A stretch of 64,000 nt of DNA from a virus (IMGVR_UViG_3300009500_000011:104585-168584), one strand, 5' to 3'. Shown: positions 11,147 through 60,122, counted from the stretch's first letter. A program made the numbers and translations. The notes: a model not told the origin generated them from the sequence alone.

Positions 11147-11659
11147 ATGGATTTTTTAGTTGGCGATATATTAGTTTTAAAACAAGATGCTCTTGACCTT
11201 GAAGATAAAACTGGCAAAACAATTTTATATCCCGCAGGTTCCGAAGCTGAAATTATACAAATAAAAAATGAAAATGAATATCATCTGCAATTTCCAGATG
11301 CCAAAATATGGCCTCATGACTTGGCAACTTTATTGATTTTCTTTAATCGTAAAAAAGATGGTAAAAATGTTTATACTCGCCAGGTTTCAGAGTATGGTAC
11401 GCCACCAAAAGAGCTTGCTTTTTATATACCTAGAGAAGTTGATTGGCGTAAAAACTATAGGTATACTGTCAGAATTGAAGCAGAAGATTGTGGCTTTAAA
11501 AAATTGATTTGTCCTAGTTGTTTCAATGACCTGGGAGAAAATGGCGAACCAGATAATGAAGGTTTGCAAAAATGTCAAAAATGTGGTACAATGGTTCTCC
11601 CGATAGACCCATTAACATTCAAGTATCCACATGATGACGGAAATGAACACACAACTTAA
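11147..11659 (+). CDS. hypothetical protein with C-terminal CxxC...CxxC zinc ribbon
   Basis: CPSCFNDLG...CQKCGT. Confidence 0.35.
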   Translation: MDFLVGDILVLKQDALDLEDKTGKTILYPAGSEAEIIQIKNENEYHLQFPDAKIWPHDLATLLIFFNRKKDGKNVYTRQVSEYGTPPKELAFYIPREVDWRKNYRYTVRIEAEDCGFKKLICPSCFNDLGENGEPDNEGLQKCQKCGTMVLPIDPLTFKYPHDDGNEHTT

Positions 11660-12935
11660 GAGTAATTCTCAAAAATTCTTAGAAGCAGCAAATTGGGCTC
11701 TTGTAAAAGAACGCTTTGGCGAAGATACAGGAGTTAATATTCGTCGCGCTTCTATAGATAATGTGCAAAATATTACGCTTTTCAATGGTTCAAAAGGTTT
11801 ACTTTTTGATGGATATTCGTTTCCTGAACAAGAACATCTTAAAGGCTTGATTGTTCACGAAGTATTAGGAAGCGCACATTCGGTTATAGCGGCATGTTTT
11901 CCTAAATTCTATAACTATGGCGAACCTGCTGAAAAACAAAAGCATCTTGAATACTTAAATGACGATTCTATGAGTGTGTTATTTGCTAAGAAAGAGGATG
12001 GAGTAAATATTCGTCCTTATTTCAATGCTGCAACAAATAGAGTTGAATTTGCTACGCGCGGAACCTTGCTTGTTGTTTCTGATATTGAAGAAACGTCTAA
12101 TCTTGATTATGGCGCAATGGCTCGTTCAATTGCAGAAGAAAAATATCCAATTCTTTTGGATGAGGAATTTGTAAAGAAATACTCTTGTATTTTTGAAATG
12201 ATTCATCCTGATTCCAAAATTCTTACGGATTATGGACAAAGAAAAGACCTTATTCTTCTGTCAGTATTTGATTTAGAAAATAACTGCTATGAATTTTCGC
12301 GTGAATGGGTAGCATCTTGGGCAAATATAATTGGGTTAAATTATGTTGAATATTGGTTTGACCAATATGCGCCTGTTTCTGAATTTTCTTCTTTAGTTGA
12401 AAAACTACTTAAAAAATGGAACGAAACGGATGTAGAAGGTTCTGTTGTTATATTTGTAAACTCTGAAGCAGAACCTGTATATCGTCTTAAAGTTAAAAAT
12501 GCTTATTATTTACAAATGCTTCGACTTGCAAAATTTTGCACTTTGAAGAATTTAGTCTCAATCATGGAAGAAAATAACTTTTCAAATTGGGAACAACTTC
12601 GTGCATATTTGTACGAAAGCCCTTCAATGAATGAAGAATTAGAAATGGCATATAAGGCTCATTTTGATGTATATGAAAATTGGTTAGCAAATCTTGAAAT
12701 CGAAAAACAAAATGTTTTAAAAGAATATCAAGAATTACCTTCTTTCGAATTACAAAAAGATTTTGCTTTATACATCTTAAAAGATGGCGCTTATCCATAC
12801 AATCCGCTATTCTTTGCTATTCGCAAATGGTTAGCAGAAGCCAAAAATCCTAATTTAGAACAATTCTTTGAAGAAAATGTTAAAGCAACAGTAATGTTGA
12901 AGAAAATCTATCCACTATCGGAAGTAGAGGAATAA
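11631..12935 (+). CDS. RNA ligase (T4 Rnl1-like nucleotidyltransferase)
   Basis: Motif I FAKKEDGVN (KxDG), motif IV-like DVEGSVVIF, motif V-like YRLKVK. Confidence 0.55.
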   Translation: MMTEMNTQLKSNSQKFLEAANWALVKERFGEDTGVNIRRASIDNVQNITLFNGSKGLLFDGYSFPEQEHLKGLIVHEVLGSAHSVIAACFPKFYNYGEPAEKQKHLEYLNDDSMSVLFAKKEDGVNIRPYFNAATNRVEFATRGTLLVVSDIEETSNLDYGAMARSIAEEKYPILLDEEFVKKYSCIFEMIHPDSKILTDYGQRKDLILLSVFDLENNCYEFSREWVASWANIIGLNYVEYWFDQYAPVSEFSSLVEKLLKKWNETDVEGSVVIFVNSEAEPVYRLKVKNAYYLQMLRLAKFCTLKNLVSIMEENNFSNWEQLRAYLYESPSMNEELEMAYKAHFDVYENWLANLEIEKQNVLKEYQELPSFELQKDFALYILKDGAYPYNPLFFAIRKWLAEAKNPNLEQFFEENVKATVMLKKIYPLSEVEE

Positions 12936-12936: not shown

Positions 12937-13443
12937 ATGGGTTTATTTGATTATGTAATTTGTGATTATCCTTTACCTGATTCATATAAAGGGAGTATTA
13001 AGTTTACAACTAAAGACTTAAATTCTTTTATGAATACTTTTACTATTACTGAATCAGGTCAACTTTTAGAACACAAATTTCATTTTGAAGAAGTTCCTGA
13101 AGAAGAACGTCCTAAATTTAATACACCCGAATGGAATTCTGATAACGAAACAATTAAAACTTGGACACGCTTAATGGGTTCAAAGATTCAAGTATTTGAT
13201 GGCTTGGAACCCTACCTTTACACAGGTGCTGTTTGTTTTTACGGTTCAAATTTAGATAGTTGTAATTCGGATGGATATTATACTACAGAAAATGATGAAC
13301 CTTATGAATACAAAGAATACATTGCTTTGTTTAAAAATGGTATGTTAATTAACATTATTGAAAATAATGAAAAAGACAATGAATTTTTTACTCCAGAATG
13401 TTTTTTAACACAAAAACAGTATAAAGAAAAATATAATGAATGA
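12937..13443 (+). CDS. hypothetical protein
   Basis: Track ORF between the ligase and the Thg1-like gene. Confidence 0.4.
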   Translation: MGLFDYVICDYPLPDSYKGSIKFTTKDLNSFMNTFTITESGQLLEHKFHFEEVPEEERPKFNTPEWNSDNETIKTWTRLMGSKIQVFDGLEPYLYTGAVCFYGSNLDSCNSDGYYTTENDEPYEYKEYIALFKNGMLINIIENNEKDNEFFTPECFLTQKQYKEKYNE

Positions 13444-14197
13444 CTCGCTTGGCGACCGAATGAAAACATATTATGAAGATGTGACGCGGCATTACTTGCC
13501 TCGGCGAACTCATACAATTATTCGGTTAGATGGAAAATCTTTTCATACGTATACAAAAAAATTAGCAAGACCATTTGATGCTGGTTTGATTGAAGATATG
13601 CAAAAAACCACAATTCGACTTTGTGAGAATATTCAGGGCGTTGTTCTTGGTTATACGCAATCTGATGAAATATCTCTTGTTTTATGTGATTATAAAGAAA
13701 AAGAAACTGAATCCTTTTTTAAAGGTAATATTCAAAAAATTTGTTCAGTATCTGCAAGTATGGCTACTGCATTCTTCAATGCTTTTAGACAAGCCCGTAA
13801 TTTTGAAGGTGGTCCAGCATTTTTTGATGCTAGAGTATTTACTATTCCAGAAAAGGTAGAAGTTCTTAATTATCTTATTTGGAGACAAAAAGATGCAACA
13901 AGAAATTCTATTCAAATGGCCGCACAATCTGTTTATTCTCATAAAGAACTTAATAAAAAGAAGTGGTCTGATTTAAATGAAATGCTTTTTCAGAAAGGTA
14001 TTAATTTTAATGATTATTCTTCTTCTGAAAAACGTGGTTCTTTAATTGTGAAAGAATATTTTGAAGGGGAAGCCTATGATAAGCGTAAGCAAGAAAATGT
14101 TATAGTTACTCGGTCGCGTTGGATTGTAGAACCTGAAACACCTCTTTTTACTGCTGAAGAAAATAGAGATTTATTTGAAAGGTATTTATATAAATAA
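13436..14197 (+). CDS. Thg1-like protein (tRNA-His guanylyltransferase / 3'-5' polymerase family)
   Basis: N-terminal GDRMKTYYE...HTIIRLDGKSFHTYTKK and SDEISLV match the Thg1/TLP signature. Confidence 0.6.
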   Translation: MNDSLGDRMKTYYEDVTRHYLPRRTHTIIRLDGKSFHTYTKKLARPFDAGLIEDMQKTTIRLCENIQGVVLGYTQSDEISLVLCDYKEKETESFFKGNIQKICSVSASMATAFFNAFRQARNFEGGPAFFDARVFTIPEKVEVLNYLIWRQKDATRNSIQMAAQSVYSHKELNKKKWSDLNEMLFQKGINFNDYSSSEKRGSLIVKEYFEGEAYDKRKQENVIVTRSRWIVEPETPLFTAEENRDLFERYLYK

Positions 14198-14349: not shown

Positions 14350-15051
14350 ATGTATATGCCAAAAAAACAATCTTCTCAAACACCTAGAAGAATTCCAACC
14401 ATAAGAACGGTACAATTTGAAGCCCAAACAATAAATCAAGAGAAGTTTGTAAAAAATATAGAAAGAAATGTTGTTTCATTCGGAATAGGTATACCAGGTT
14501 CAGGAAAAACGTATTTAGCATTAGCAACTGCTCTTAAAGCATTAGTTGAACAAAAATGTGAACGAGTTGTAATAACTAGACCAATGGTTGAAGCAGGTCC
14601 TTCTATCGGATTCCAACCTGGAAATGAAGAAGAAAAACTTGGAGTATATTTAAAACATATTTATGATATGATATATAAATTACTACCAAAAGTTTTGGCA
14701 GATGATTTGCTTGATTCAGGAAAAATATCAATTGGTGCTATTACATTTATGAGAGGAATGAATTTTGAAAACTCATATGTAATAATAGATGAAGCCGAAA
14801 ACTTAGACAAAAAATCATTTTATTTGTTATTAACAAGAATTTGTGAAGGGTCTAAAATGATTTTTTGTGGTGATACTGGCCAGGTTGATTTAAAAAATCC
14901 TAGTGAAAGCGGATTAAATGATGCAGTTTTAAAATTTCAAGGTAAAGAAAATTTTAGTGTAACTGAATTTACTATTGAAGATTGTCGCAGAAGTAAAGTT
15001 GTTATGGAAGTTATTAAAGCATATTTCCCTAACTCAACCAAGACAAAGTAA
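14350..15051 (+). CDS. phoH: PhoH-like ATPase
   Basis: GIGIPGSGKTYLALA Walker A, VIIDEAENL Walker B, typical PhoH length and GDTGQVDL motif. Confidence 0.75.
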   Translation: MYMPKKQSSQTPRRIPTIRTVQFEAQTINQEKFVKNIERNVVSFGIGIPGSGKTYLALATALKALVEQKCERVVITRPMVEAGPSIGFQPGNEEEKLGVYLKHIYDMIYKLLPKVLADDLLDSGKISIGAITFMRGMNFENSYVIIDEAENLDKKSFYLLLTRICEGSKMIFCGDTGQVDLKNPSESGLNDAVLKFQGKENFSVTEFTIEDCRRSKVVMEVIKAYFPNSTKTK

Positions 15052-17234: not shown

Positions 17235-17308
17235 ATTTTGAGTTGCGCTAGAATAAAGTTACTTCGTCTGTAAAACGAGGAATCCGGGTTCGAGTCCCGG
17301 TCGGAATC
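17235..17308 (+). tRNA. tRNA-like element / possible pseudo-tRNA (anticodon loop CTGTAAA = GTA)
   Basis: Acceptor ATTTTGA/TCGGAAT (with G-U pairs), anticodon stem TTCGT/ACGAG, canonical T-arm CCGGG-TTCGAGT-CCCGG. No convincing D-stem; no CCA. Confidence 0.3.
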
Positions 17309-18943: not shown

Positions 18944-18948
18944 ATCAT

Positions 18949-19020
18949 TGGAGTGGTAGCATAGAGGTAATGTACCGTTTTATCGCGAGCGGGATGAAGG
19001 TTCGAGTCCTTCCCCTCCAG
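18949..19020 (+). tRNA. tRNA-like gene with 8-nt anticodon loop (TTATCGCG) - identity unclear
   Basis: Acceptor TGGAGTG/CCCTCCA (one mismatch), D-arm GCAT-AGAGGTA-ATGT, stem CCGTT/AGCGG enclosing 8 nt, canonical T-arm GAAGG-TTCGAGT-CCTTC. Confidence 0.35.
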
Positions 19021-19040
19021 TTCTTTTTTAAAAAGAAATC

Positions 19041-22893: not shown

Positions 22894-23004
22894 ATGGACG
22901 AATACGGCGAAGACGAAGATTTATTTGATAATTTATATGATGATGATTTCGTTGATAATGAAGACGAAGAAGACATTTATATAGAAGACGAAGAAGAATT
23001 TTAA
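22894..23004 (+). CDS. very acidic 36-aa protein (DNA-mimic-like composition)
   Basis: MDEYGEDEDLFDNLYDDDFVDNEDEEDIYIEDEEEF; ATG 22894 to TAA 23002-23004. Confidence 0.3.
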   Translation: MDEYGEDEDLFDNLYDDDFVDNEDEEDIYIEDEEEF

Positions 23005-23091
23005 AATTTGCACGGGCGTTGGTGACAAGGGACAGGGAAACGACCAACGAAGAATGATGACGGGCGTGGGGTTGTCATTCAAAATAATAAT

Positions 23092-23174
23092 GCTGGGGTG
23101 GCTCAGAGGCGACAGCGCCAGTTTTGTAAACTGGTATACAAACAACGTGGGTTCGAGTCCCACCCCCAGCCCCA
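23092..23174 (+). tRNA. tRNA-Thr-like (anticodon TGT) with 12-nt unpaired variable region
   Basis: Acceptor GCTGGGG/CCCCAGC, stem CCAGT/ACTGG, loop TTTGTAA, variable TATACAAACAAC, T-arm GTGGG-TTCGAGT-CCCAC, CCA encoded. Confidence 0.5.
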
Positions 23175-23388
23175 ATTATGTTATATAATGAGTATTAAGC
23201 AGATACAATATTCTAGTAGTCTAGATGGGACCCGAGCTTGTCATCCCACGGACGTTAAAGTGGTGCGGCGATAGATGTGGTTCAAGCATATGAACGACAC
23301 ATATTATTAACTGAAATAAATGCCAAATAAACAGCCTTTTGAAAGGTGTTAAATTAAGGTAATTATTGTCTTAGAAAGAAAATTAAAT

Positions 23389-24129
23389 ATGTCAAAAACA
23401 ATAAAACGAACAGTCACAACCATCGTTGAAGAAGAAGTTGTGCCTACTAATGAAGGTCTTTATACCGAAGTATTAGTAGATATGTCAGGTTCTATGTCAA
23501 ATGTTTGGGACTCTACAATTGCCGGTATCAATGAATTAAAAAACGGCCCATCTGGTTCCAATGATACAATGTCATTGACGTTTTTTGATAACGTTGTTGA
23601 ACGTCCATATATCAACAAATCTGTTAAATCAATTCCAGATGTAACTCGCGAATTATATCATCCACGCGGTTCTACTGCGTTACTTGATGCAATTGGAACA
23701 ACAATTAGAAGTGTTGAAAATATGAAAGATAGACCTTCTAAAGTTTTGTTTGTCATCATAACTGATGGTCAAGAAAATGCAAGTCGTGAATTTAATAATT
23801 CTCAAGTCTCTGCTCTTATTCGTGAAAAAGAAGCACAAGGCTGGGAATTTCTTTATATGGGAGCAAACCAAGATGCTTGGTCAACTGCTACGAATATTGG
23901 TATTCAAGGTGTAGGTAAATTTAATTTTGCTTCTAATCCTACTGTTACTGCTGCTGCTTTTAAAGGTGCTTCAGCAACACGTTCTGCTTATTCTAGTGGT
24001 ATGTCATACAATGCATCGGTTGGTGCGACATACAGCACGTTAAATGCTGTAGCACCAGAACTTAATGCAAACTATCTTGACAATAGTGGAAACACTTCTA
24101 TAATCGACACAGATATTACAAAGATTTAA
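23389..24129 (+). CDS. von Willebrand factor A (vWA) domain protein
   Basis: MIDAS-like VLVDMSGSMS ... TALLDAIG ... VIITDGQEN. Confidence 0.55.
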   Translation: MSKTIKRTVTTIVEEEVVPTNEGLYTEVLVDMSGSMSNVWDSTIAGINELKNGPSGSNDTMSLTFFDNVVERPYINKSVKSIPDVTRELYHPRGSTALLDAIGTTIRSVENMKDRPSKVLFVIITDGQENASREFNNSQVSALIREKEAQGWEFLYMGANQDAWSTATNIGIQGVGKFNFASNPTVTAAAFKGASATRSAYSSGMSYNASVGATYSTLNAVAPELNANYLDNSGNTSIIDTDITKI

Positions 24130-24165
24130 TTTGTACGCCCAGCCCAAGCGTTATTGGGCTCCTTT

Positions 24166-24240
24166 GCCTCTATCTTTCAACGGCTAGGAAACATCATTGG
24201 TAATGATGCAATGAAGGTTCGATTCCTTCTAGGGGCTCCA
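24166..24240 (+). tRNA. tRNA-Thr (anticodon GGT)
   Basis: Acceptor GCCTCTA/TAGGGGC, stem CATCA/TGATG, loop TTGGTAA, T-arm GAAGG-TTCGATT-CCTTC, U73-CCA. Confidence 0.7.
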
Positions 24241-24446
24241 ATTCTTAAGAGGATAGAATGTTTGATAGATTAAAAGAAATATTTGCGGTTAGATTAATTA
24301 TTAAACTTGGTTTTGAAGATAAATTAATGGGCGCTCATCTTCCTAAGATTACTGATATGGATATTAAAGCAATTTTGGTCCAGATGAGAAAAGAGGGCTA
24401 TTATAGTCCTCATGGTTTTATATAAAATTAAAAAGATTGATGTAAA

Positions 24447-24935
24447 TTGAAATATTTTTTTGATACCGAATTCATAGAAAATGGAGAAACTATAGACCTA
24501 GTAAGTATAGGTATTGTTTCTGAAATTGGACGTACTTACTATGCAATTAGTAAAGAATTTGACCCTACCAAGGCTGACCCTTGGGTTATTGAAAATGTTC
24601 TAACTCTTTTAGTTAAAGATGGTAAGCCAATCGAACCTGAAAATTGGAAAAGTCGAGAACAAATTAAGAATGATATTTTAACATTTGTTGATGATGAACC
24701 TGAATTTTGGGCTTGGTACGGAGCTTATGACTGGGTATGTTTAGCACAATTGTTTGGTAAAATGGTAAATTTACCAAAACATTTTCCCATGTATGCCAGA
24801 GATATAAAATTATTATCAGAATTAAAGGGTAATCCTCCTAAGCCTCCTCAAGCAGGAAGTAAGCATAACGCTCTTGAAGATGCAAAATGGAATAGAATGT
24901 TTTATAATATGCTTATCAAGATGCCTTACGTTTGA
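24447..24935 (+). CDS. DEDDh 3'-5' exonuclease
   Basis: Exo I FFDTEF, Exo II YGAYDW, Exo III HNALEDAKW. Confidence 0.55.
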   Translation: MKYFFDTEFIENGETIDLVSIGIVSEIGRTYYAISKEFDPTKADPWVIENVLTLLVKDGKPIEPENWKSREQIKNDILTFVDDEPEFWAWYGAYDWVCLAQLFGKMVNLPKHFPMYARDIKLLSELKGNPPKPPQAGSKHNALEDAKWNRMFYNMLIKMPYV

Positions 24936-24938
24936 TAC

Positions 24939-24967
24939 TTGACAAAATATTTGAAATAGAGTAATAT
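24939..24967 (+). promoter_or_regulatory. promoter TTGACA-N17-TAATAT directly in front of the Cys-rich mini-ORF (near-leaderless)
   Basis: The -10 ends 6 nt before ATG 24974. Confidence 0.45.
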
Positions 24968-24973
24968 GTAAAT

Positions 24974-25093
24974 ATGAATACTAATCATAGAGTCTGCCGT
25001 TGCGACGGTAAACCATATCCAAAAAGTCTAAGATGCAAGTGTAATTGCCAATGCGAAGGTTGTTCAGGAGCCCGCAAGGCAAGAAGCAAATAA
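24974..25093 (+). CDS. Cys-rich 39-aa protein
   Basis: MNTNHRVCRCDG...CKCNCQCEGC; a consensus promoter lies immediately upstream. Confidence 0.3.
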   Translation: MNTNHRVCRCDGKPYPKSLRCKCNCQCEGCSGARKARSK

Positions 25094-25103
25094 ACTGAAT
25101 ATT

Positions 25104-25188
25104 GGGACTTTGGCAGAGCGGTTATGCAACGGACTCTTAATCCGTGAGGGAAACCTCTATGTGGGTTCGACCCCCACAGGTCCCACCA
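25104..25188 (+). tRNA. type-II tRNA (15-nt variable arm) carrying a Lys-type anticodon loop CTCTTAA (CTT)
   Basis: Acceptor GGGACTT/AGGTCCC, stem ACGGA/TCCGT, variable arm GAGGGAAACCTCTAT, T-arm GTGGG-TTCGACC-CCCAC, A73-CCA. Confidence 0.5.
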
Positions 25189-25197
25189 AATAACTAT

Positions 25198-25274
25198 GGG
25201 ATAGTAGGAGAATTGGCATATCTACCACGTTTAGACCGTGGGTTCTGTGGGTTCAAGTCCCACCTATCCTACCA
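25198..25274 (+). tRNA. class-I tRNA (5-nt variable loop) carrying a Leu-type anticodon TAG
   Basis: Acceptor GGGATAG/CTATCCT, stem CCACG/CGTGG, loop TTTAGAC, T-arm GTGGG-TTCAAGT-CCCAC, A73-CCA. Confidence 0.55.
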
Positions 25275-25281
25275 AATATTT

Positions 25282-25310
25282 AAAAGACCTGATATCAGGT
25301 CTTTTATCAT
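25282..25310 (+). terminator. intrinsic terminator after the tRNA pair
   Basis: AAAAGACCTGA-TA-TCAGGTCTTTT + ATCATT. Confidence 0.6.
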
Positions 25311-25587
25311 TCAAAAAGTTTAATTTAATATGGCAAGAAAAAACATAGATGATATTTATAACGAAAACAATTATGTTCAGAAAAATTATACAGGCAGCGG
25401 TTTTGCCCTTGGTTTAGCCTTGGCGGCGACATGTTTGATAGCGTTGCACCTTCTGGGAGTTAAATTGATTTAATATGGTAAGATTAAAATTAAAATGGAA
25501 AATAAAAAAAGATGGATATGGTTTAAAATCATCTTGGAAAAAGAAAAACAAACATAAAAAATCTTTTATTATCTGGAAATAAAAATA

Positions 25588-26253
25588 ATGCCTTTAAAAA
25601 TCGTGTGTATTTCTGATACTCACAATTCATTAAATCAACTTGAACTTAATGGATTAAAAATGCCAGAAGCAGATGTTCTTATACATGCTGGTGATTTAAC
25701 ATTTAAAGGCCAACTTCCAGAAATTTCAAAAGCAAATTATCATTTAGGGAAAATTAAACATAAGTATAAACATGTGGTTTTTGTTCCAGGAAATCATGAT
25801 TTTCTTTTTCAAAAAGATGAAGCAATTGCAAGGGCTGTATTGTCTAATGCAACCGTATTAATTGACCAACCTTTAGAAATTGAAGGTTATAAATTTTACG
25901 GTAGTCCTTGGCAACCCTGGTATCAAGATTGGGCATTTAATTTTAAAAAATATTCAGCAGGAGGAAAAGAACAGTCAATTCGTATTTGGGGAGCTATTCC
26001 TGAAGAGACTGATATTTTAATTACTCATGTCCCGCCATATATGATGATGGATAAAACTGAATATGGTGAAAATATTGGTGATGCTTGGCTTGCTAAACGT
26101 TTGAAAGAACTTCCTAATCTTAAACTTCATGTTTTTGGGCATGTTCATGAAAGATACGGTAAAGTAGAAGCAAAAATTACCTTTGTTAATGCAGCTTCTA
26201 TGAACCGTAGATATAGCATTGTGAATCCACCAATTGTTATAGATTTGCCTTAA
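25588..26253 (+). CDS. calcineurin-like metallophosphoesterase
   Basis: CISDTHN, GDLTFKG, GNHD, GHVH motifs. Confidence 0.6.
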   Translation: MPLKIVCISDTHNSLNQLELNGLKMPEADVLIHAGDLTFKGQLPEISKANYHLGKIKHKYKHVVFVPGNHDFLFQKDEAIARAVLSNATVLIDQPLEIEGYKFYGSPWQPWYQDWAFNFKKYSAGGKEQSIRIWGAIPEETDILITHVPPYMMMDKTEYGENIGDAWLAKRLKELPNLKLHVFGHVHERYGKVEAKITFVNAASMNRRYSIVNPPIVIDLP

Positions 26254-26262
26254 AATAAGAAT

Positions 26263-26742
26263 ATGGATAACAAAGATTTGGTAGTTCATTGTAAGATAAA
26301 ACCTTACGACGTTTATATTGGGCGAAGCAAAGACCCTAAAAAAGGTAAGTGGGGGAATCCTTATTCTCATGAAGAAGGAACCCTTGCCGAATATAAAGTG
26401 GCAACCCGAGAAGAAGCGGTAGAATGTTTTCGTAAATATTTATTAAAAAATGTCGATTTAATGAAACAAATTTTAACCTTAAAAGGTAAAGTTTTGGGAT
26501 GCTGGTGTAAGCCTAAATCTTGTCATGGAGATATTATTGTAGAATTTATTAATAAAATTGACAATGGTGAATCCTTGTGCGATAATTGTGAAGAGGAAGA
26601 TTGTTATTATTGCAATCTTGGTTGTCCTTGGTGTGGACATGCACACAGTTTAGATGGTTCATGTAAAAATTGTTGGTTAGAAGCATGTCAAATAAATGAT
26701 GAAGAAATGCTTCTAAGAATAAAAGATTTAATACCTAAATAA
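26263..26742 (+). CDS. hypothetical protein (DUF4326-like N-terminus, Cys-rich C-terminus)
   Basis: GNPYSHEEG ... LGCWCKPKSCHGDII, then a CxxC cluster. Confidence 0.3.
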   Translation: MDNKDLVVHCKIKPYDVYIGRSKDPKKGKWGNPYSHEEGTLAEYKVATREEAVECFRKYLLKNVDLMKQILTLKGKVLGCWCKPKSCHGDIIVEFINKIDNGESLCDNCEEEDCYYCNLGCPWCGHAHSLDGSCKNCWLEACQINDEEMLLRIKDLIPK

Positions 26743-26746
26743 AATT

Positions 26747-26833
26747 GGCCGAATGGCGGAATTGGTAGACGCGGCAGACTCAAAATCTGTTGTCCGAAAG
26801 GGCGTGTGGGTTCAAGTCCCACTTTGGCCACCA
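26747..26833 (+). tRNA. tRNA-Leu (anticodon CAA), type II
   Basis: Acceptor GGCCGAA/TTTGGCC, stem GCAGA/TCTGT, loop CTCAAAA, long variable arm, T-arm GTGGG-TTCAAGT-CCCAC, A73-CCA. Confidence 0.7.
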
Positions 26834-26862
26834 CAAATTGAATTCTTTAAGAAGAGGAAAAA

Positions 26863-27309
26863 GTGATTAACTTTATTAAAAAGATTTTTAAACTAGGTAG
26901 TACCCAACCGAAGAATATTTCGTCAAATTCAAAACCATCGACAGCGAGTAATTCAATTAATTACAATGTTCATCCCATTGTGATTGAGCGACCTCTTCCG
27001 ACTCCTAAGCCGGTGTATTACGATGATACATCTTCGCAATTAACGAATATGTTGTTAATGGAAGAGATTATTGATTCAAGTTATCAACCTACCACAACGG
27101 TAATTGTAGAACCACCAGCACCTGTTGATAATTACAATAACTATTCGGCACCAGAACCTTCGCCGTCTTCGTCGCCAAGTCCATCATATGATAGCGGTTC
27201 ATCATATTCAGATAGTAGTTATTCGTCGTCTTCTTCATGGTCTTCTTCGTCATATGATAGCGGTAGTAGTAGTTCGTCTTCATCATATGATAGTGGTGGT
27301 GGTTGGTAA
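26863..27309 (+). CDS. Ser/Tyr/Pro-rich low-complexity protein
   Basis: C-terminal SSSPSPSYDSGSSYSDSSYSSSSS repeats; flanked by two tRNA-Leu-type genes. Confidence 0.35.
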   Translation: MINFIKKIFKLGSTQPKNISSNSKPSTASNSINYNVHPIVIERPLPTPKPVYYDDTSSQLTNMLLMEEIIDSSYQPTTTVIVEPPAPVDNYNNYSAPEPSPSSSPSPSYDSGSSYSDSSYSSSSSWSSSSYDSGSSSSSSSYDSGGGW

Positions 27310-27320
27310 ATAATAATAAA

Positions 27321-27403
27321 GGGCAAGTGGTGGAACTGGTATACACGTATGTCTAAGAAGCATATGCGAAAGCATGTGGGTTCGAGTCCCACCTTGCCCA
27401 CCA
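27321..27403 (+). tRNA. type-II tRNA, Leu-like body, anticodon loop CTAAGAA (reads AAG; A34 unusual)
   Basis: Acceptor GGGCAAG/CTTGCCC, 7-bp anticodon stem, variable arm TGCGAAAGCAT, T-arm GTGGG-TTCGAGT-CCCAC, A73-CCA. Confidence 0.5.
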
Positions 27404-27425
27404 TAATTTAAGGGAATATAAATCT

Positions 27426-27881
27426 TTGATGTTAGATGATTTAATTACGCCACTTAATTCTTTTCAAGAATTAAAAAATATTCTTGAAGAAAATCCTAGA
27501 CTACATTATAGCAAAGGTTATGCAGGTAATATTTCTACGATACCTGGTCCTGTAATTCTTTATCCAATTATTGGTGTGGTTAGAAATAAGGCTAATTGGC
27601 GTTTGATAAATGGCAAAATTTATGGCGGAGAAATTTTAATAAAAGTTTTTGCAGAAGTCGATTATACAACTACTGTTTATCCTTTAGATTATTTACTTGA
27701 TGATTTAAATGAACTTACTCTTGAAGAATTAGCACGACCTATTTTGATTTCTCCATGTAAGAGAAATCAAAATATCGAAGAAGTCACTCTATATGCAGAG
27801 TGTGCAGGAATTTTAACTCGACCAGATGAATTTGATACCAACCTATATTTAGGTTTTGGAAAATTGCCAGAAATCATATAA
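27426..27881 (+). CDS. hypothetical protein
   Basis: Track ORF. Confidence 0.4.
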   Translation: MMLDDLITPLNSFQELKNILEENPRLHYSKGYAGNISTIPGPVILYPIIGVVRNKANWRLINGKIYGGEILIKVFAEVDYTTTVYPLDYLLDDLNELTLEELARPILISPCKRNQNIEEVTLYAECAGILTRPDEFDTNLYLGFGKLPEII

Positions 27882-27889
27882 TGAAATTT

Positions 27890-27979
27890 GGGGATATGGT
27901 GAAATTGGTCAGACACAACAGGCTTAAACCCTGTCGGGCGTTATATCCCATGTCGGTTCGAATCCGACTATCCCTACCA
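27890..27979 (+). tRNA. tRNA-Leu (anticodon TAA), type II
   Basis: Acceptor GGGGATA/TATCCCT, stem ACAGG/CCTGT, loop CTTAAAC, 17-nt variable arm, T-arm GTCGG-TTCGAAT-CCGAC, A73-CCA. Confidence 0.75.
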
Positions 27980-28138
27980 ATTAAATAATGAAATGCATTG
28001 AAAACACTAAATCCTGTAGTAATATAATTTTTACTTGCAGGATTTGTAATAATAAGAATTGTTTTATTCATTCTAATTTGCTTCATTGGTCAACAATGAA
28101 AGCGATTTGTTTGCATTGTCAAAAGGAAAAGAAGAGTA

Positions 28139-28615
28139 ATGATGCACAATTATAAAGTGTCAGAAAAATATTGGGCGCAATTTGATACTGATGAGAAACT
28201 TATAGAATTTGCGTATAGTCGTCTTTTAAAATATTCTTTAAAAGATTTAAATAAATTAGCGCGCGAATGGTTATCCGAGATTGGTGCCATTGAAGGTAAA
28301 GAATTTTATATAGAATATATTATTGAAAATAATATTGATACTGATGATGTTGAATATCATGAACTAGATACACTTGATAAATGGGATTTAGAAGATTACA
28401 TCGTTTCAGATATGTATTTTTATACACCTTCTGATGTTGTTCTTTGGTTAAAAGATACAAATTATTTTAATCTTGATAAAGAAATTCTTCGTAGTGAACT
28501 TATTGCTTTTGTAGAAAATACTTTTAGCGATTTTGATGATTGGCCAGATGAACAATCTATAATTGAAGTGTTCAAGAACCCTAATCAATTAGAATTTAAT
28601 TTTGATGAAATATAA
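28139..28615 (+). CDS. hypothetical acidic protein
   Basis: Track ORF. Confidence 0.35.
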   Translation: MMHNYKVSEKYWAQFDTDEKLIEFAYSRLLKYSLKDLNKLAREWLSEIGAIEGKEFYIEYIIENNIDTDDVEYHELDTLDKWDLEDYIVSDMYFYTPSDVVLWLKDTNYFNLDKEILRSELIAFVENTFSDFDDWPDEQSIIEVFKNPNQLEFNFDEI

Positions 28616-28862
28616 AACCATAAAATACTTTGATTGTCAAGATATGCCTGAAAAAGTAAAAGAGGCATTTTTTAATACTTTTGAAATTTTTGAAAAATAT
28701 TATCCAAATAATATCATTATTGAATGGTTTGAAGAATATTCAAAAAGTGGATTTAAAAAACAATTTCCAAATAATGCTGATAATTTAAACAAAGTAAATC
28801 TTTGGTTGAAAAAAAATGGAGCATTACCTGGAGAATTAGTATTAATTAAACATTGGTGGTAA
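28602..28862 (+). CDS. hypothetical protein
   Basis: Track ORF. Confidence 0.3.
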   Translation: MMKYKTIKYFDCQDMPEKVKEAFFNTFEIFEKYYPNNIIIEWFEEYSKSGFKKQFPNNADNLNKVNLWLKKNGALPGELVLIKHWW

Positions 28863-28864
28863 AT

Positions 28865-29404
28865 ATGTCTAAAGAAATTTTAACCGTGTATTTAGCCGGT
28901 CGTATAGATGGTATTAGTGCAGATAGAGCAACAAATTGGCGCGATGAAGCATTAAAGTTACTTGCAAAAAATAAATTTGCAGGTCTTTGTCCTATTACTC
29001 ATGGTGTTGATTTAGAACTTAACTCTGGTGTTCCCGCCGATTTGACTAAACCAGAAATACATAATAAAATTTTTGAAATAGATTTAGATTTAATTTTTAG
29101 AAGCGATGCAGTTATTGCAAATATGGAATATATATCGTTTGGAACCGCACAAGAAATATTTTATGCAGATAAAATATTAAATATTCCTGTAATTGCATTT
29201 AATAATAAAAGTTGCACTTCTGCTTTTCTTTATGCAACAACTTACAAAATAGTTGACACATTAGAAGATGCTATTGAAGTGTTAAAAACATTAAATAAAA
29301 AATCAGAAATGTTAACAATTGGTGGTTTAAGAGAAGTTCTTTGGAGTACAAGAGAGACATACGATATTCCTTTAGAAAAACTAAAAAAACGTAATTCTTT
29401 TTAA
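28865..29404 (+). CDS. nucleoside 2-deoxyribosyltransferase-like protein
   Basis: N-terminal VYLAGRIDG motif (YLAGP/F-type) and overall size; ATG 28865. Confidence 0.4.
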   Translation: MSKEILTVYLAGRIDGISADRATNWRDEALKLLAKNKFAGLCPITHGVDLELNSGVPADLTKPEIHNKIFEIDLDLIFRSDAVIANMEYISFGTAQEIFYADKILNIPVIAFNNKSCTSAFLYATTYKIVDTLEDAIEVLKTLNKKSEMLTIGGLREVLWSTRETYDIPLEKLKKRNSF

Positions 29405-29682: not shown

Positions 29683-30408
29683 ATGATTAATACATATGTT
29701 GTAGGGGACGTACACGGTTGCTACGATTCTCTAATCGAATTACTAGAATTGGTTAATTTTAATGTTGACCGAGATATGTTAATAAGTGTTGGCGACCTTG
29801 TAGATAAGGGTCCAAAAACCAAGGAAGTTTTAGACTTCTTTATGAAGTATGGTTATCCTGTGGTTAGAGGCAATCATGAAGATAAGATTGCTCGTCTTGC
29901 CAAGGGAAACAAGATTAAGATTAACTCTGAAATTCAAGATACTGTTGAACAACTTGGAGAAGGTTGGCAGGAAACGTATGGCCTATTTCTTCAATCAATG
30001 CCATTATATCTTCCGTTTGAAGATGCTTTGGGTAAGGGATATATTGTCCACGGTGGCGTTGCACCAGACCTTCCTATCGAAAGGCAAAGTTCTAATTTCT
30101 TAATGCGTCTTAGAACGTGGCCTTTTGAAGAATATGTACGTGGGGTAGAGGCAACTCAACCTCCTTGGCAGACTGAATATAGAGGTCACTTAGGAACAAT
30201 ACTTCACGGGCATATTCCAAGTGCAGGCGTAATGTATGCAGGTTCTGAAAAGCATGGAAATCCCAATGTATATTCATTGGATGGTGGATGTGTTTACGGG
30301 AATGACCGTCCTTGGGGCGGTAGTCTTCGGGCTATTAAACTTGATACTAGAGAGATTTTCTCTGTTCCCGGTAATCAAGAACAAACAGAACATTATAACA
30401 GTTTGTGA
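29683..30408 (+). CDS. PPP-family Ser/Thr (lambda-type/ApaH-like) phosphatase
   Basis: GDVHGCYD, GDLVDKGP, RGNHE signature motifs. Confidence 0.65.
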   Translation: MINTYVVGDVHGCYDSLIELLELVNFNVDRDMLISVGDLVDKGPKTKEVLDFFMKYGYPVVRGNHEDKIARLAKGNKIKINSEIQDTVEQLGEGWQETYGLFLQSMPLYLPFEDALGKGYIVHGGVAPDLPIERQSSNFLMRLRTWPFEEYVRGVEATQPPWQTEYRGHLGTILHGHIPSAGVMYAGSEKHGNPNVYSLDGGCVYGNDRPWGGSLRAIKLDTREIFSVPGNQEQTEHYNSL

Positions 30409-30462: not shown

Positions 30463-30888
30463 ATGTTTTCTGAAGAACTTGCCACTTTACCTTTTGGTTT
30501 GAAGATGGCTCAAAAAGTATTTCAAAATACTCCTGATAAAAAGAAGCGGGTAACTGCTTGTTTTGTGAAAGGAGGTTTATTTCTTGCTGACACCAATCAA
30601 TTTAAGACCGACCCTACAGGCCATAAATTGAATAGTCGGGGTTGTCGCCTTCATGCTGAAATGAAAGTTCTAAAAAGACTTCGTTTCCAAGAAACAAATG
30701 GTGGCAAGTTGTTTGTTTATAGAGAAGATATGTCCGGTGCAATTAAAAATGCCAGGCCGTGTCGTGCTTGTAGAAAAATGATAGTAGAATGTGGAATTAA
30801 CACAGTTTACTATACAATAGAAGAAGGATACATAAAAGAGAAGATAAACAACTCAGCAGATTATATAGGCTCAGATAATGAATATTGA
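30463..30888 (+). CDS. dCMP/cytidine deaminase (zinc-dependent)
   Basis: HAEMKVL and PCRACRKM (H-x-E ... PC-xx-C) motifs. Confidence 0.6.
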   Translation: MFSEELATLPFGLKMAQKVFQNTPDKKKRVTACFVKGGLFLADTNQFKTDPTGHKLNSRGCRLHAEMKVLKRLRFQETNGGKLFVYREDMSGAIKNARPCRACRKMIVECGINTVYYTIEEGYIKEKINNSADYIGSDNEY

Positions 30889-31186
30889 TGATAAGTGCGA
30901 AACATGCGATGGTAAAGGTACATGGGAAGTACCCTGGGATGAAGTTGATGATGCAACCAAGGCTATGCTTGGTGGCATTGATGACTTGATAAGTAAATTT
31001 CCTGGTTCTAAATTGGGTCCATTAGTTTATAATTGTCCTGATTGTCAACAAACTGGTTCGCAAGCCGTTCGAGAACAATGGTCAATAAATCGTTTAGACC
31101 CTAAAAAACATGAGTATGTTTTTCAATGTACTGATGGTGACCCTTGTTGGGAATGTAAAGCAGAGAAAAAAGAGCATTTAAAATGA
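30878..31186 (+). CDS. zinc-ribbon protein
   Basis: CETCDG ... CPDCQ ... CWEC. Confidence 0.35.
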   Translation: MNIDDKCETCDGKGTWEVPWDEVDDATKAMLGGIDDLISKFPGSKLGPLVYNCPDCQQTGSQAVREQWSINRLDPKKHEYVFQCTDGDPCWECKAEKKEHLK

Positions 31187-32001
31187 TTGATTATACAACA
31201 AAACCGGATTTAGGAAAATTATCTGAATCAGAATTTTTTGATTTAGATAATCCGCCTTTTGATATTCAAAAACATTGTTTATATTCAGTCATATCTGGTT
31301 CAAAAGCATATGGATTAGATACGCCTACAAGCGATACTGATATTCGTGGAGTTGTATATTTACCAGAAAGAATGTTGCTTGGTTTAGGTAGATTTGAACA
31401 AATTGAAAATCAAAGCAAAGATATTTGTTATTACAGTCTACAAAAACTTTTTAATTTGGCATTAAAAAATAATGTTCATGCAATGGAAATGCTTTGGATG
31501 CCAAAAAGAACGGTTAACTTTATACATCCTTTATTTGAGCAAGTTCTAGATAATAAAAATTTATTTATGTCTAAACGCATTGCATATACTTGTGGTGGAT
31601 ATGCTTTCCAACAAGTTAAGGTTGCCTTTACAAAGATGAAAAATAAGACTGGTAGAGTTAGTTTATTAGAACAATTTGGCTATGATACTAAATTTATGAG
31701 TCATAGTATTCGTATTTATAGAATGGCCCGTGAAGCATTAGAAACAGGTTTTCTAAATGTCTATCGACCTGATAGAGAGTTTTTACTTGATGTTAAGGTT
31801 GGTAAATATAAACTTGAAGATATTGTTGTTATGGGTAAAAATTCAGAAGGTAAAGATACTTTTGTTGGTGGATTATTAGCAGAAGAATTGCGACTTTTTA
31901 ATGAAGCACTTGCAAAAACAAAATTACCAACCGACCCTCCTTTCCAAAAAATTGAAAATCTTTTAATTAAAGTTCAAAAAGAAGCTTTATCTTTTAATTA
32001 A
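31183..32001 (+). CDS. nucleotidyltransferase-fold protein (pol-beta superfamily)
   Basis: GSKAYGLDTPTSDTDIRGV fits the GS-x(9-13)-D-x-D motif. Confidence 0.4.
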   Translation: MIDYTTKPDLGKLSESEFFDLDNPPFDIQKHCLYSVISGSKAYGLDTPTSDTDIRGVVYLPERMLLGLGRFEQIENQSKDICYYSLQKLFNLALKNNVHAMEMLWMPKRTVNFIHPLFEQVLDNKNLFMSKRIAYTCGGYAFQQVKVAFTKMKNKTGRVSLLEQFGYDTKFMSHSIRIYRMAREALETGFLNVYRPDREFLLDVKVGKYKLEDIVVMGKNSEGKDTFVGGLLAEELRLFNEALAKTKLPTDPPFQKIENLLIKVQKEALSFN

Positions 32002-44933: not shown

Positions 44934-45036
44934 CTCTAATAGAGTTGAAGCTGAAGGAAACGAAGCAGGTGGTTTAAATGCCATCGGAAGCAAGTGCAAG
45001 TCTTGCCATCTCTGCCATAAAAAACTAAATAAATTT

Positions 45037-45400: not shown

Positions 45401-45519
45401 GTTCGAGTCCATTAAGTGTAGTCGGTACACAACTGTAGTTGTTCCATTCGTTTAAATTTTATTTAATCCTTGGGAATATATTTCTCAAGGATTTTTTTGT
45501 TGTCATAAAGGAAAAAAGA

Positions 45520-60082: not shown

Positions 60083-60122
60083 CTCAAAAGTAGAGTGCTA
60101 TGTTTGGAACATAGAAGTTGGG

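What the first reader, a model, noticed from the sequence alone, without database searches (positions are those of the whole stretch)
25104..25274. Adjacent tRNA pair with swapped architecture: type-II (long-arm) tRNA with Lys anticodon CUU next to class-I tRNA with Leu anticodon UAG
- 25104..25188 folds with a 15-nt variable stem-loop (GAGG-GAAA-CCTC) and A73, i.e. a Leu-type body, but its anticodon loop is CTCTTAA (CUU, lysine).
- The neighbouring 25198..25274 has a 5-nt variable loop but anticodon UAG (leucine).
- LeuRS recognises A73 plus tertiary structure rather than the anticodon, so the first could be leucylated yet read AAG codons.
- Together with the tRNAs at 27321 and 58686, this suggests phage tRNAs with unusual identity/decoding relationships, or novel isoacceptors.
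Basis: seen in the sequence. Interest (0 to 1): 0.75.

Follow-up and report, generated by a model that had tools for sequence, protein, structure and literature searches.

The report
Long-armed lysine tRNA, short-armed leucine tRNA
Two real, neighbouring phage tRNA genes have unusual shapes (a lysine tRNA with an extra arm, a leucine tRNA without its usual extra arm); both shapes recur in many phages and nothing indicates that either changes the genetic code.

Summary
25104-25188 is an 85-nt tRNA with anticodon CUU, a 3-bp D stem and a 15-nt variable arm (GAGG-GAAA-CCTC-UAU). 25198-25274 is a 77-nt class-I tRNA with anticodon UAG.

The interpretation (swapped bodies, possible AAG-to-Leu decoding) is not supported.
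- The long-arm tRNA lacks a Leu-type D loop and has the wrong arm geometry for Leu. It scores 23-44 bits below the real Leu tRNAs on a type-II Leu model. Its anticodon arm is a normal Lys(CUU) arm.
- The short tRNA keeps the known LeuRS identity features.
- In orthologues, AAG codons align with Lys as often as AAA does, and CUA with Leu as often as UUA.

Each shape is a recurrent class.
- Long-arm tRNA-Lys (CUU and UUU) occurs in dozens of viral contigs, in mobile tRNA arrays and in cultured phages such as XacN1. The arm stem shows compensatory changes.
- About half of the phage tRNA-Leu sampled lack the long arm, whereas Ser and Tyr keep it.
- The two traits are not coupled.

I found no paper describing either class. 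The purpose is inferred: my leading guess is evasion of tRNA-cleaving host defences.

The parts
24939..24967 (+). sigma-70-like promoter candidate (TTGACA-17-TAATAT), upstream of a 39-aa Cys-rich ORF (24974-25093) and the tRNA pair
   Evidence: 10 of 12 consensus matches. This is a consensus match only; the region holds fewer such sites than shuffled sequence, so it is weak evidence.
25104..25188 (+). tRNA-Lys(CUU), 85 nt, with type-II architecture: 3-bp D stem, long variable arm, A73, encoded CCA
   Evidence: ARAGORN. Rfam 55.7 bits. Homologues with compensatory changes in the acceptor, T and variable stems. Model scores.
25136..25138 (+). anticodon CUU within loop CUCUUAA. The anticodon arm ACGGA-CUCUUAA-UCCGU matches ordinary bacterial and phage class-I tRNA-Lys(CUU).
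   Evidence: Comparison with class-I Lys(CUU) sequences.
25146..25160 (+). variable arm: 4-bp stem GAGG/CCUC, GNRA tetraloop GAAA, 3 unpaired nt UAU
   Evidence: In 7 homologues the stem is 100% paired, with double (compensatory) changes at 3 of 4 pairs. The same design is seen across 55 long-arm Lys.
25189..25197 (+). 9-nt spacer (AAUAACUAU) between the two tRNAs, consistent with one transcript
   Evidence: Co-transcription is inferred, not shown.
25198..25274 (+). tRNA-Leu(UAG), 77 nt, class-I (5-nt variable loop GUUCU at 25242-25246) with a Leu-type D arm, A14, A15:U48, A73, encoded CCA; anticodon at 25232-25234
   Evidence: ARAGORN. Rfam 54.3 bits. Its T arm GUGGGUUCAAGUCCCAC is identical to that of the window's type-II Leu(CAA) at 26747. 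It is the best non-type-II hit to the Leu model, at 49.7 bits.
25281..25306 (.). 11-bp palindromic hairpin (UAAAAGACCUG-AUAU-CAGGUCUUUUA) just after tRNA-Leu; a likely bidirectional intrinsic terminator
   Evidence: 3 terminator-like sites in the region against 0.8 expected. The scan scored this one on the minus strand. On the plus strand the U run partly overlaps the stem.

Best explanation
These are two functional tRNA genes in the tRNA island of an uncultivated, low-GC, jumbo-phage-like genome. They are probably co-transcribed. Each decodes according to its anticodon: AAG as lysine and CUA (probably also CUG) as leucine.

**tRNA 1** belongs to a widespread but apparently undescribed class of long-arm (type-II) tRNA-Lys. 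It has a normal Lys anticodon arm and A73. Its core is built to carry an extra arm (3-bp D stem, GAGCGG D loop). The arm itself is a 3-4-bp stem with a GNRA cap, followed by 3-4 unpaired nucleotides. LysRS reads mainly the anticodon (U35, U36) and A73, so it should still charge this tRNA (inferred). The arm geometry is the one used by tRNA-Tyr, whose synthetase also needs the anticodon. It is not the geometry used by Leu or Ser, whose synthetases ignore the anticodon. That choice would avoid mischarging (inferred).

**tRNA 2** is a tRNA-Leu that has lost the long arm but keeps what bacterial LeuRS is known to use: A73, A14, the A15:U48 pair, the placement of G18G19 and a Leu-type D loop. About half of the phage tRNA-Leu I sampled are of this kind. 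Ser and Tyr, whose synthetases bind the arm, almost always keep it.

The two traits are independent. Their adjacency here is coincidence, not a swap.

**Why the arms change** is not shown. My leading guess (about 0.35) is that gaining or losing the arm alters the surface that tRNA-cleaving defence nucleases recognise while leaving charging and decoding intact.
For: **Shown**
- Gene calls and folds agree across methods.
- The family is real and under selection. In 7 homologues from metagenomes, viral contigs and a MAG, 95.2% of cells pair and 10 pairs carry double changes; 0 of 500 shuffles reach this. The variable stem is 100% paired, with 3 of 4 pairs compensatory.
- Across 24 diverse long-arm Lys, each stem position shows 4-5 pair types, and 20 of 24 have GNRA loops.
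- The class is widespread. A pattern scan found 27 IMG/VR contigs. A genome scan found about 17 dense tRNA arrays, mostly in Alphaproteobacteria.
- Cultured phages carry it, annotated simply as tRNA-Lys: XacN1 has one (89 nt by ARAGORN, 87 nt as annotated) and Mesorhizobium phage Cp1R7A-A1 has two of 88 nt.
- Slot filling. Complete 20-isotype arrays L042 and L059 contain only long-arm Lys. L148 contains only class-I Leu, for five anticodons. The window has 19 isotypes, and its only Lys is the long-arm one.
- Other isotypes with an added arm keep their own discriminator base: Asn 8/8 G, Cys 6/6 U, Trp 3/3 G, Ile 13/13 A.
- There is no recoding signal at AAG or CUA.
- Class-I Leu: in control contigs 55 of 112 Leu are class-I. 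All 55 have A73 and 47 have a Leu-type D loop. Ser is long-armed in 62 of 64 and Tyr in 22 of 23.
- Model scores.

**Context for the defence idea**
- The window encodes a T4 Rnl1-like RNA ligase, a Thg1-like enzyme, RlaP, Ro60/Rsr, phosphoesterases and a 3'-5' exoribonuclease.
- PARIS AriB cuts tRNA-Lys(UUU), Thr(UGU) and Asn(GUU) at 40|41, next to where the arm emerges (PMC12409363).
- Septu and retron-Eco7 PtuAB cut the variable arm of tRNA-Tyr, and T5 escapes with a different arm (PMC13096335).
- In my sample, added arms are most frequent in Ile(UAU), Lys, Thr(UGU) and Asn(GUU).
Against: - No charging, expression or decoding data exist for these genes.
- The Tyr-like arm together with A73 and U35 leaves some room for TyrRS mischarging.
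- Relatives often carry a class-I Lys(CUU) right beside the long-arm Lys(CUU). That redundancy could mean the long-arm copy does something different.
- The recoding test uses early and metabolic genes, and relatives that may share the same tRNAs. It cannot see low-level mistranslation.
- The model comparison is only moderately discriminating: Leu(CAA) scores 52.9 on the Tyr model against 54.8 for the long-arm Lys.
- The defence rationale is circumstantial. The window's tRNA reads only AAG (17% of Lys codons), so it could not rescue AAA decoding if host tRNA-Lys(UUU) were destroyed.
- The prevalence figures come from contigs chosen for one particular anticodon-arm sequence and from ARAGORN calls. 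They count distinct sequences, not independent lineages.
Confidence: 0.72

Rival explanations
1. Identity mismatch. The long-arm CUU tRNA is charged by LeuRS, or by TyrRS or SerRS, which accept type-II bodies. AAG is then partly or wholly read as a non-lysine amino acid during infection, as deliberate mistranslation or recoding.
For: - It has a type-II body with A73, and LeuRS and SerRS ignore the anticodon (established knowledge).
- The arm geometry and D arm are Tyr-like, and the tRNA ranks third of 32 on the Tyr model. U35 is shared with tRNA-Tyr.
- Relatives carry a redundant class-I Lys(CUU) next to it.
Against: - It has no Leu-type D loop, and its score on the Leu model is generic.
- The arm has 3 unpaired nt on its 3' side, unlike Leu and Ser. 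It has no G73, which Ser would need.
- About half of all long-arm Lys carry U73, which fits neither Leu nor Tyr.
- AAG aligns with Lys exactly as AAA does, with no excess of Leu or Tyr.
- Long-arm Lys is the only Lys in complete 20-isotype arrays.
- Added arms in Asn, Cys and Trp come with those isotypes' own discriminator bases.
Confidence: 0.07
2. Neutral or structural drift. Phage tRNAs are under relaxed constraint. Leu loses an arm that LeuRS does not need. Other isotypes pick up a stable GNRA hairpin that helps folding, processing or stability (for example of under-modified phage transcripts). Immunity plays no part.
For: - Arm loss tracks synthetase need: Leu is about 50% short, while Ser and Tyr are over 95% long.
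- Arms appear in many isotypes, not only known nuclease targets.
- GNRA-capped hairpins are generic stabilisers (established knowledge).
Against: - The arm is maintained by compensatory change across divergent phages, so it is selected rather than drifting.
- Its geometry is stereotyped.
- Added arms are concentrated in a few anticodons: Ile-UAU 50%, Lys about 20%, Thr-UGU 16%, Asn 14%, against 2-4% or less for many others.
- The phage invests heavily in RNA-repair genes.
Confidence: 0.2
3. One or both genes are decaying pseudogenes or tRNA-derived elements (for example an attachment site or processing signal) with no role in translation.
For: The window does contain degenerate tRNA-like sequences: 17242-17308, 18948-19021 and 44941-45017.
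Against: - Both have complete cloverleaves, conserved G18G19 and a UUCRA T loop, an encoded CCA and mid-range Rfam scores.
- Their helices covary.
- Homologues fill the only Lys or Leu slot in complete arrays.
Confidence: 0.02

Closest known systems
Phage tRNA variants that escape defence nucleases: T5 tRNA-Lys(UUU), Thr(UGU) and Asn(GUU) against PARIS AriB; T5 tRNA-Tyr against retron-Eco7/Septu PtuAB (PMC11464382, PMC12409363, PMC11555353, PMC13096335, PMC10264068)
   Same: - They are phage-encoded copies of tRNAs that differ from the host versions in the anticodon/variable region while keeping their decoding role.
- For tRNA-Tyr, the variable arm is itself the contested site.
- The isotypes with added arms overlap AriB's targets.
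   Different: - The known cases are point substitutions, or a different arm sequence within the same architecture. Here a whole arm is added to Lys or removed from Leu.
- No nuclease resistance has been tested for these tRNAs.
- The window's Lys keeps the U36-A-A-U-C motif next to the AriB cut site.
Type-I tRNA-Leu(CAA) of Streptomyces coelicolor (PMC6614811), and mitochondrial class-I tRNA-Leu
   Same: A tRNA-Leu with a short variable loop coexists with type-II tRNA-Leu and is served by one LeuRS.
   Different: - That paper presents it as a rare bacterial exception needing a special LeuRS domain, and reports that C74 rather than A73 matters.
- Here the trait is phage-encoded and common (about half of sampled phage Leu). 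It keeps A73 and the Leu-type D loop.
- The host LeuRS is unknown.
Bacterial tRNA-Tyr (type II)
   Same: A 3-bp D stem, a GAGCGG-type D loop, a variable arm followed by 3-4 unpaired nt, and A73. The window's own Tyr D stem (GCA/UGC) is identical.
   Different: - The anticodon is CUU, not GUA, and the anticodon arm is Lys-type.
- It scores 17 bits below the window's real Tyr on the Tyr model.
- Descent from Tyr versus convergence is unresolved.
Identity-mismatched tRNAs: allo-tRNAs, CUG-clade tRNA-Ser(CAG), yeast mitochondrial tRNA-Thr(UAG) (PMC7609411)
   Same: On the surface, the body type does not match the anticodon.
   Different: Those tRNAs carry the full identity set of the other amino acid, and the codon is demonstrably reassigned. 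Here the Leu and Ser identity sets are absent and the codon shows no reassignment.
Long tRNA arrays (L-arrays, tRNA array units) on mobile elements (PMC8421152, PMC5966550, PMC12803027)
   Same: Dense arrays covering nearly all 20 amino acids. Their tRNAs differ from chromosomal copies in the D, anticodon and variable arms, and an anti-defence role has been proposed for them.
   Different: Those papers do not report long-arm Lys or class-I Leu. I found both in alphaproteobacterial arrays.

Membership tests
tRNA (Rfam RF00005) | Cloverleaf matching the covariance model at or above the gathering score (29 bits) | tested here: met
   55.7 and 54.3 bits. ARAGORN agrees.
Type-II (long variable arm) tRNA, for 25104-25188 | Variable region longer than 10 nt that forms a stem-loop, with a 3-bp D stem | tested here: met
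   A 15-nt arm with a 4-bp stem. The stem covaries in homologues.
Bacterial tRNA-Leu body, for 25104-25188 | Leu-type D loop (A14 A15 U16 U17 G18 G19 plus 20a; GAAUUGGYAGA) | tested here: not met
   The D loop is GAGCGGUUA. Compare the Leu alignment A3.
Bacterial tRNA-Leu body, for 25104-25188 | Variable arm followed by 1-2 unpaired nt, and a high score on a Leu-specific model | tested here: not met
   It has 3 unpaired nt, whereas Leu has 1-2 in 81 of 84. On model R1 it scores 43.7 bits against 66.9-88.1 for real Leu.
Bacterial tRNA-Leu body, for 25104-25188 | Discriminator A73 | tested here: met
   A73 is present, but ordinary tRNA-Lys shares it (142 of 164 class-I Lys), so it does not discriminate.
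tRNA-Lys, for 25104-25188 | Anticodon NUU with a Lys-type anticodon arm and A73 (the main LysRS identity elements; established knowledge) | tested here: met
   The arm ACGGA-CUCUUAA-UCCGU equals that of class-I Lys(CUU). The tRNA ranks 5th of 32 on the class-I Lys model despite its arm, and all other long-arm tRNAs score 31.4 bits or less.
tRNA-Lys, for 25104-25188 | Class-I architecture (4-5-nt variable loop, 4-bp D stem), as in cellular tRNA-Lys | tested here: not met
tRNA-Lys, for 25104-25188 | Charged with lysine by LysRS | not testable with these tools
   Indirect support only: AAG behaves as Lys, and long-arm Lys fills the only Lys slot in complete arrays.
tRNA-Leu, for 25198-25274 | Leu anticodon, A73, A14, an A15:U48 pair and a Leu-type D arm (the E. 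coli LeuRS identity set; established knowledge) | tested here: met
   Its T arm is identical to that of the window's Leu(CAA). It is the best non-type-II hit on R1, at 49.7 bits.
tRNA-Leu, for 25198-25274 | Long variable arm (the bacterial type-II norm) | tested here: not met
   It has a 5-nt loop. The same holds for 55 of 112 phage Leu in the control set.
Identity-mismatched or recoding tRNA | The codon read by the anticodon is used at positions conserved for a different amino acid | tested here: not met
   AAG aligns with K at 43% against 46% for AAA. L+Y is 3 of 82 against 10 of 332. CUA aligns with L at 63%, the same as UUA.
Nuclease-evading phage tRNA | Resists a defence tRNase that cuts the host counterpart | not testable with these tools
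   Context only: RNA-repair genes in the window, and overlap of the arm-bearing isotypes with AriB targets (PMC12409363).

The most novel reading that the evidence does not exclude
Gain or loss of the variable arm is a general, previously unrecognised way for phages to evade immunity. In this reading, a Tyr-geometry arm grafted onto tRNA-Lys (and onto Asn, Thr-UGU and Ile-UAU) shields the anticodon-stem face from tRNA-cleaving defence nucleases such as PARIS AriB, OLD or PrrC-type enzymes. Deleting the arm from tRNA-Leu removes the handle used by nucleases that target the arm or type-II tRNAs (PtuAB/Septu, Schlafen-like). The choice of arm geometry is limited to what will not attract SerRS or LeuRS.
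Probability: 0.3. Interest if true: 0.8.

Novelty: new variant of a known kind. Interest (0 to 1): 0.55.

Why it matters
Textbooks and current reviews limit long-arm (type-II) tRNAs in bacteria to Leu, Ser, Tyr and Sec, and treat bacterial tRNA-Leu as essentially always type II. In the contigs I sampled, phages and mobile tRNA arrays break both rules repeatedly and in a patterned way. Lys, Asn, Ile(UAU) and Thr(UGU) gain an arm of one stereotyped geometry. Leu loses its arm in about half of cases, while Ser and Tyr do not.

This gives a natural experiment on which tRNA features synthetases and ribosomes really need. It also offers testable candidates for the current arms race between tRNA-cleaving defence systems and phage tRNAs. 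Cultured, tractable examples already exist: XacN1, Mesorhizobium phage Cp1R7A-A1, Erwinia phage Hena1 and Acinetobacter phage Acibel004.

For annotation, it warns that a type-II body carrying a non-Leu/Ser/Tyr anticodon in a phage is not, on that basis alone, evidence of recoding.

Tried and rejected
- **Near-identity search.** A megablast of 23000-29000 against GenBank phages found only a short tRNA-Leu match in XacN1. A tblastn of the 1191-aa ORF found nothing. No close cultured relative exists.
- **Neighbouring gene as a handle.** Relatives found through the adjacent metallophosphoesterase were unrelated phages without these tRNAs.
- **First metagenome pattern.** An exact pattern spanning the anticodon stem and variable arm found nothing. 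A degenerate pattern for the 5' half then found 15 contigs.
- **Recoding test on one gene.** Using only the ribonucleotide reductase against 100+ homologues was underpowered: 9 AAG codons, with conserved columns K, K, E and Y. I replaced it with a multi-gene comparison against two syntenic relatives.
- **MAFFT/RNAalifold on 21 diverse long-arm Lys.** This mis-registered the variable arm and acceptor. I used anchor-based parsing and a gap-free alignment of close homologues instead.
- **Tyr model.** Phage tRNA-Tyr are heterogeneous, so the Tyr model was built from only 8 canonical sequences and discriminates modestly.
- **Literature.** Eight searches found no description of long-arm tRNA-Lys or of class-I tRNA-Leu in phages. 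The XacN1 paper and the L-array paper are silent on it. Subscription journals are not covered, so prior description cannot be excluded.
- **Rejected: alternative fold or intron restoring canonical structures.** ARAGORN, Rfam and the energy fold all agree on the anticodon position.
- **Rejected: coupling of the two traits.**

Full report
**1. Observation**

ARAGORN calls tRNA-Lys(ctt) at 25104-25188 (85 nt) and tRNA-Leu(tag) at 25198-25274 (77 nt). Rfam's tRNA model scores them 55.7 and 54.3 bits against a gathering score of 29. That is mid-range among the window's 29 Rfam tRNAs.

- tRNA 1 has a 3-bp D stem (GCA/UGC), the loop CUCUUAA, a 15-nt variable arm GAGG-GAAA-CCUC-UAU, A73 and an encoded CCA.
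- tRNA 2 has a 5-nt variable loop, the loop UUUAGAC, A73 and an encoded CCA.

The energy fold of tRNA 1 recovers the acceptor, anticodon, variable and T helices.

**2. Setting**

- The window is about 32% GC, with nearly all ORFs on the plus strand, and carries 32 tRNA calls.
- It encodes ribonucleotide reductase and primase.
- It also has a striking set of RNA-repair and tRNA-maintenance genes: a T4 Rnl1-like ligase, a Thg1-like enzyme, PhoH, RlaP, Ro60/Rsr, three metallophosphoesterases, and an Rv2179c-like 3'-5' exoribonuclease directly upstream of the pair.
- No close cultured relative exists.
- A promoter-like site lies upstream of the pair, and a strong hairpin follows it.

**3. Is tRNA 1 a Leu-type body? 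No**

- A73 is the normal discriminator of tRNA-Lys: 142 of 164 class-I phage Lys have it.
- The D loop reads GAGCGG (Tyr/Ser-like spacing). All Leu tRNAs here, including the class-I one, read GAAUUGGYAGA.
It is 3-4 in 47 of 55 long-arm Lys, which resembles Tyr.

Scores on three covariance models built here:

| Model | Real members in the window | Long-arm Lys (25104) | Class-I Leu(UAG) (25198) |
|---|---|---|---|
| Phage type-II Leu (R1) | Leu 88.1, 76.8, 66.9 | 43.7 | 49.7 (rank 4) |
| Class-I Lys (R2) | none in the window (Asn tops at 67.7) | 43.1 (rank 5 of 32) | 37.3 |
| Canonical phage Tyr (R3) | Tyr 72.0 | 54.8 (rank 3) | 30.1 |

On the Leu model the long-arm Lys sits at the level of Pro, Ser, Gln and Tyr. 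On the Lys model every other long-arm tRNA scores 31.4 bits or less.

So tRNA 1 combines a Lys anticodon arm with a Tyr-like type-II core. The model evidence for 'Tyr-like' is modest, because Leu(CAA) scores 52.9 on the Tyr model.

**4. tRNA 2 is a Leu tRNA without the arm**

- It keeps A73, A14, A15:U48, a 3-bp D stem and the Leu D loop.
- Its T arm is identical to that of the window's type-II Leu(CAA).
- From established work on E. coli LeuRS, which I cite from memory and did not test here, the arm is dispensable for leucylation.

**5. Both shapes recur widely**

Long-arm Lys:
- A pattern for a Lys(CUU) anticodon arm with type-II spacing hit 27 IMG/VR contigs. Nearly all are 81-92-nt Lys(CUU), and several sit beside long-arm Lys(UUU).
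- The same pattern hit 25 places in 185,579 reference genomes. About 17 of these are true long-arm Lys inside dense arrays of 20-40 tRNAs, mostly in Alphaproteobacteria.
- A lineage-specific pattern found 15 metagenome contigs. Nine carry a long-arm Lys(CUU) homologous to the window's.
- The closest relative, L056, shares the identical arm but has a different T stem and acceptor.
- In seven homologues, 95.2% of cells pair and 10 pairs carry double changes. The variable stem is fully paired, with 3 of 4 pairs compensatory; 0 of 500 shuffles match this.
- Across 24 diverse members, every stem position shows 4-5 pair types, and 20 have GNRA loops.
- Cultured phages carry the same thing, annotated simply as tRNA-Lys: XacN1, Mesorhizobium phage Cp1R7A-A1 and others.
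- Erwinia phage Hena1 has an 86-nt tRNA-Asn with almost the same arm, GAGC-GAAA-GCUC-UAU.

Class-I Leu:
- In 120 control contigs chosen for an ordinary class-I Lys(CUU), 55 of 112 distinct tRNA-Leu are class-I. All 55 have A73 and 47 have a Leu-type D loop.
- In the same contigs Ser is long-armed in 62 of 64 and Tyr in 22 of 23. Lys(UUU) is long-armed in 5 of 51.
- Acinetobacter phage Acibel004 has two annotated 77-nt tRNA-Leu.

**6. The traits are independent**

- The class-I Leu fraction is 56% with long-arm Lys and 49% without.
- The window's closest long-arm Lys relatives sit beside type-II Leu, and often beside a class-I Lys(CUU) and a Lys(UUU).
- 'Swapped architecture' is therefore a coincidence of adjacency.

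**7. Identity and decoding**

- Against two syntenic relatives (about 50-70% protein identity), AAG aligns with K in 35 of 82 positions and AAA in 153 of 332 (p=0.62).
- L+Y is 3 of 82 against 10 of 332 (p=0.73).
- CUA aligns with L in 17 of 27 and UUA in 188 of 297 (p=1.0).
- Complete 20-isotype arrays have only long-arm Lys (L042, L059) or only class-I Leu (L148).
- Added arms in other isotypes keep those isotypes' own discriminators: Asn G, Cys U, Trp G, Ile A.
- Half of the long-arm Lys carry U73, which suits neither LeuRS nor TyrRS.
- Together these findings argue that anticodon-defined identity is retained. Charging itself is inferred, not shown.

**8. Why the arm changes (inferred)**

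- Arm retention follows synthetase need. SerRS and TyrRS bind the arm and bacterial LeuRS does not (established knowledge). This explains why only Leu loses it.
- The added arms use a geometry that Leu and Ser do not use, which would avoid the two anticodon-blind synthetases.
- The purpose may be evasion of tRNA-targeting defences. AriB cuts Lys(UUU), Thr(UGU) and Asn(GUU) at 40|41 (PMC12409363). PtuAB cuts the arm of tRNA-Tyr, and T5 escapes with a different arm (PMC13096335, PMC11555353).
- In my sample added arms are commonest in Ile(UAU) 13/26, Lys(UUU) 16/81, Thr(UGU) 6/38 and Asn 13/91.
- This is circumstantial, and I give it about 0.35. A neutral or stability explanation remains plausible at about 0.2.

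**9. Novelty and caveats**

- I found no paper describing long-arm tRNA-Lys or the high frequency of class-I tRNA-Leu in phages.
- A 2019 paper calls type-I tRNA-Leu in Streptomyces a rare exception.
- The genes themselves are already in GenBank under plain names.
- The counts depend on ARAGORN calls, on contigs chosen for one anticodon-arm sequence, and on distinct sequences rather than independent lineages.
- The literature search excludes most subscription journals.

**Verdict**

The swap and recoding reading is not supported. The two genes are ordinary in function, but each represents an unremarked, recurrent architectural class of phage tRNA.

Noticed in passing
window 23092-23174, 58131-58213, 58686-58776: Three more tRNAs of normally class-I isotypes have long variable regions. 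Thr(UGU) is 83 nt with a 12-nt unstructured loop. Val(UAC) is 83 nt with the loop CAUACCACAUC. Arg(ACG) is 91 nt, with an arm carrying a GCAA loop and a CAUU tail. Thr(UGU) is a known PARIS AriB target.
   Followed up: partly
window 27321-27403 (and ORF 30463-30888): tRNA-Leu(AAG) has A34, which is rare in bacteria outside tRNA-Arg(ACG), and a minimal arm UGC-GAAA-GCA. CUU is 27% of Leu codons in the window. A small cytidine-deaminase-fold ORF lies nearby; the match is weak and may be a dCMP or dCTP deaminase.
   Followed up: partly
window 11631-12935, 13436-14197, 14350-15051, 24447-24935, 25588-26253, 29683-30408, 31183-32001, 45439-47205, 48496-49146: A dense RNA-repair and tRNA-maintenance toolkit: a T4 Rnl1-like ligase, a Thg1-like 3'-5' polymerase, PhoH, an Rv2179c-like exoribonuclease, three metallophosphoesterases, RlaP and Ro60/Rsr.
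   Followed up: partly
window 17242-17308, 18948-19021, 44941-45017, 51187-51260, 60073-60144: Degenerate or odd tRNA-like elements. These are a 67-nt Tyr-like remnant, a tRNA with an 8-nt anticodon loop (ARAGORN '???'), a tRNA-like sequence with loop UUUAAAUG and CCA found only at relaxed settings, and two weak covariance-model hits that ARAGORN does not call.
   Followed up: partly
L006, L007, L008, L045, L054, L064 (tRNA-Ile(UAU), 90-96 nt): Half of the tRNA-Ile(UAU) sampled (13 of 26) carry a long arm of a different design: a 4-bp stem, a CAGAUUA-like loop and 5-6 unpaired nt. It is conserved across viral contigs and alphaproteobacterial arrays, and looks like a separate undescribed class.
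   Followed up: no
L042, L050, L059 and other genome loci (L040-L064): Alphaproteobacterial MAGs and genomes (including Thalassospira xianhensis and Pseudaminobacter soli) hold arrays of 20-40 tRNA genes in about 5 kb. These arrays contain long-arm Lys (UUU and CUU, U73), class-I Leu, long-arm Asn and Gln, and a 101-nt 'Ala(GGC)' call that overlaps the Gln gene.
   Followed up: partly
L021, L022, L027 (next to long-arm Lys): Type-II-length tRNA-like genes with odd anticodon loops, which ARAGORN calls '???(ttta)' and '???(tt)', sit beside long-arm Lys. A tRNA-Tyr(AUA) is also present. I did not examine them.
   Followed up: no
L039 and L185 (syntenic relatives of the window's left end): Relatives of this phage encode a translation initiation factor IF3 homologue, ClpP and sigma-70 region-2-like proteins. 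In one relative the RNA ligase is fused to DUF6065.
   Followed up: no
window 1733-4195 compared with P0001: The closest ribonucleotide reductase homologue (98% identity, 1137 aa) carries Pfam PF14528 and is about 300 aa longer, which probably reflects an intein-type insertion. The window's copy (820 aa) lacks it.
   Followed up: no
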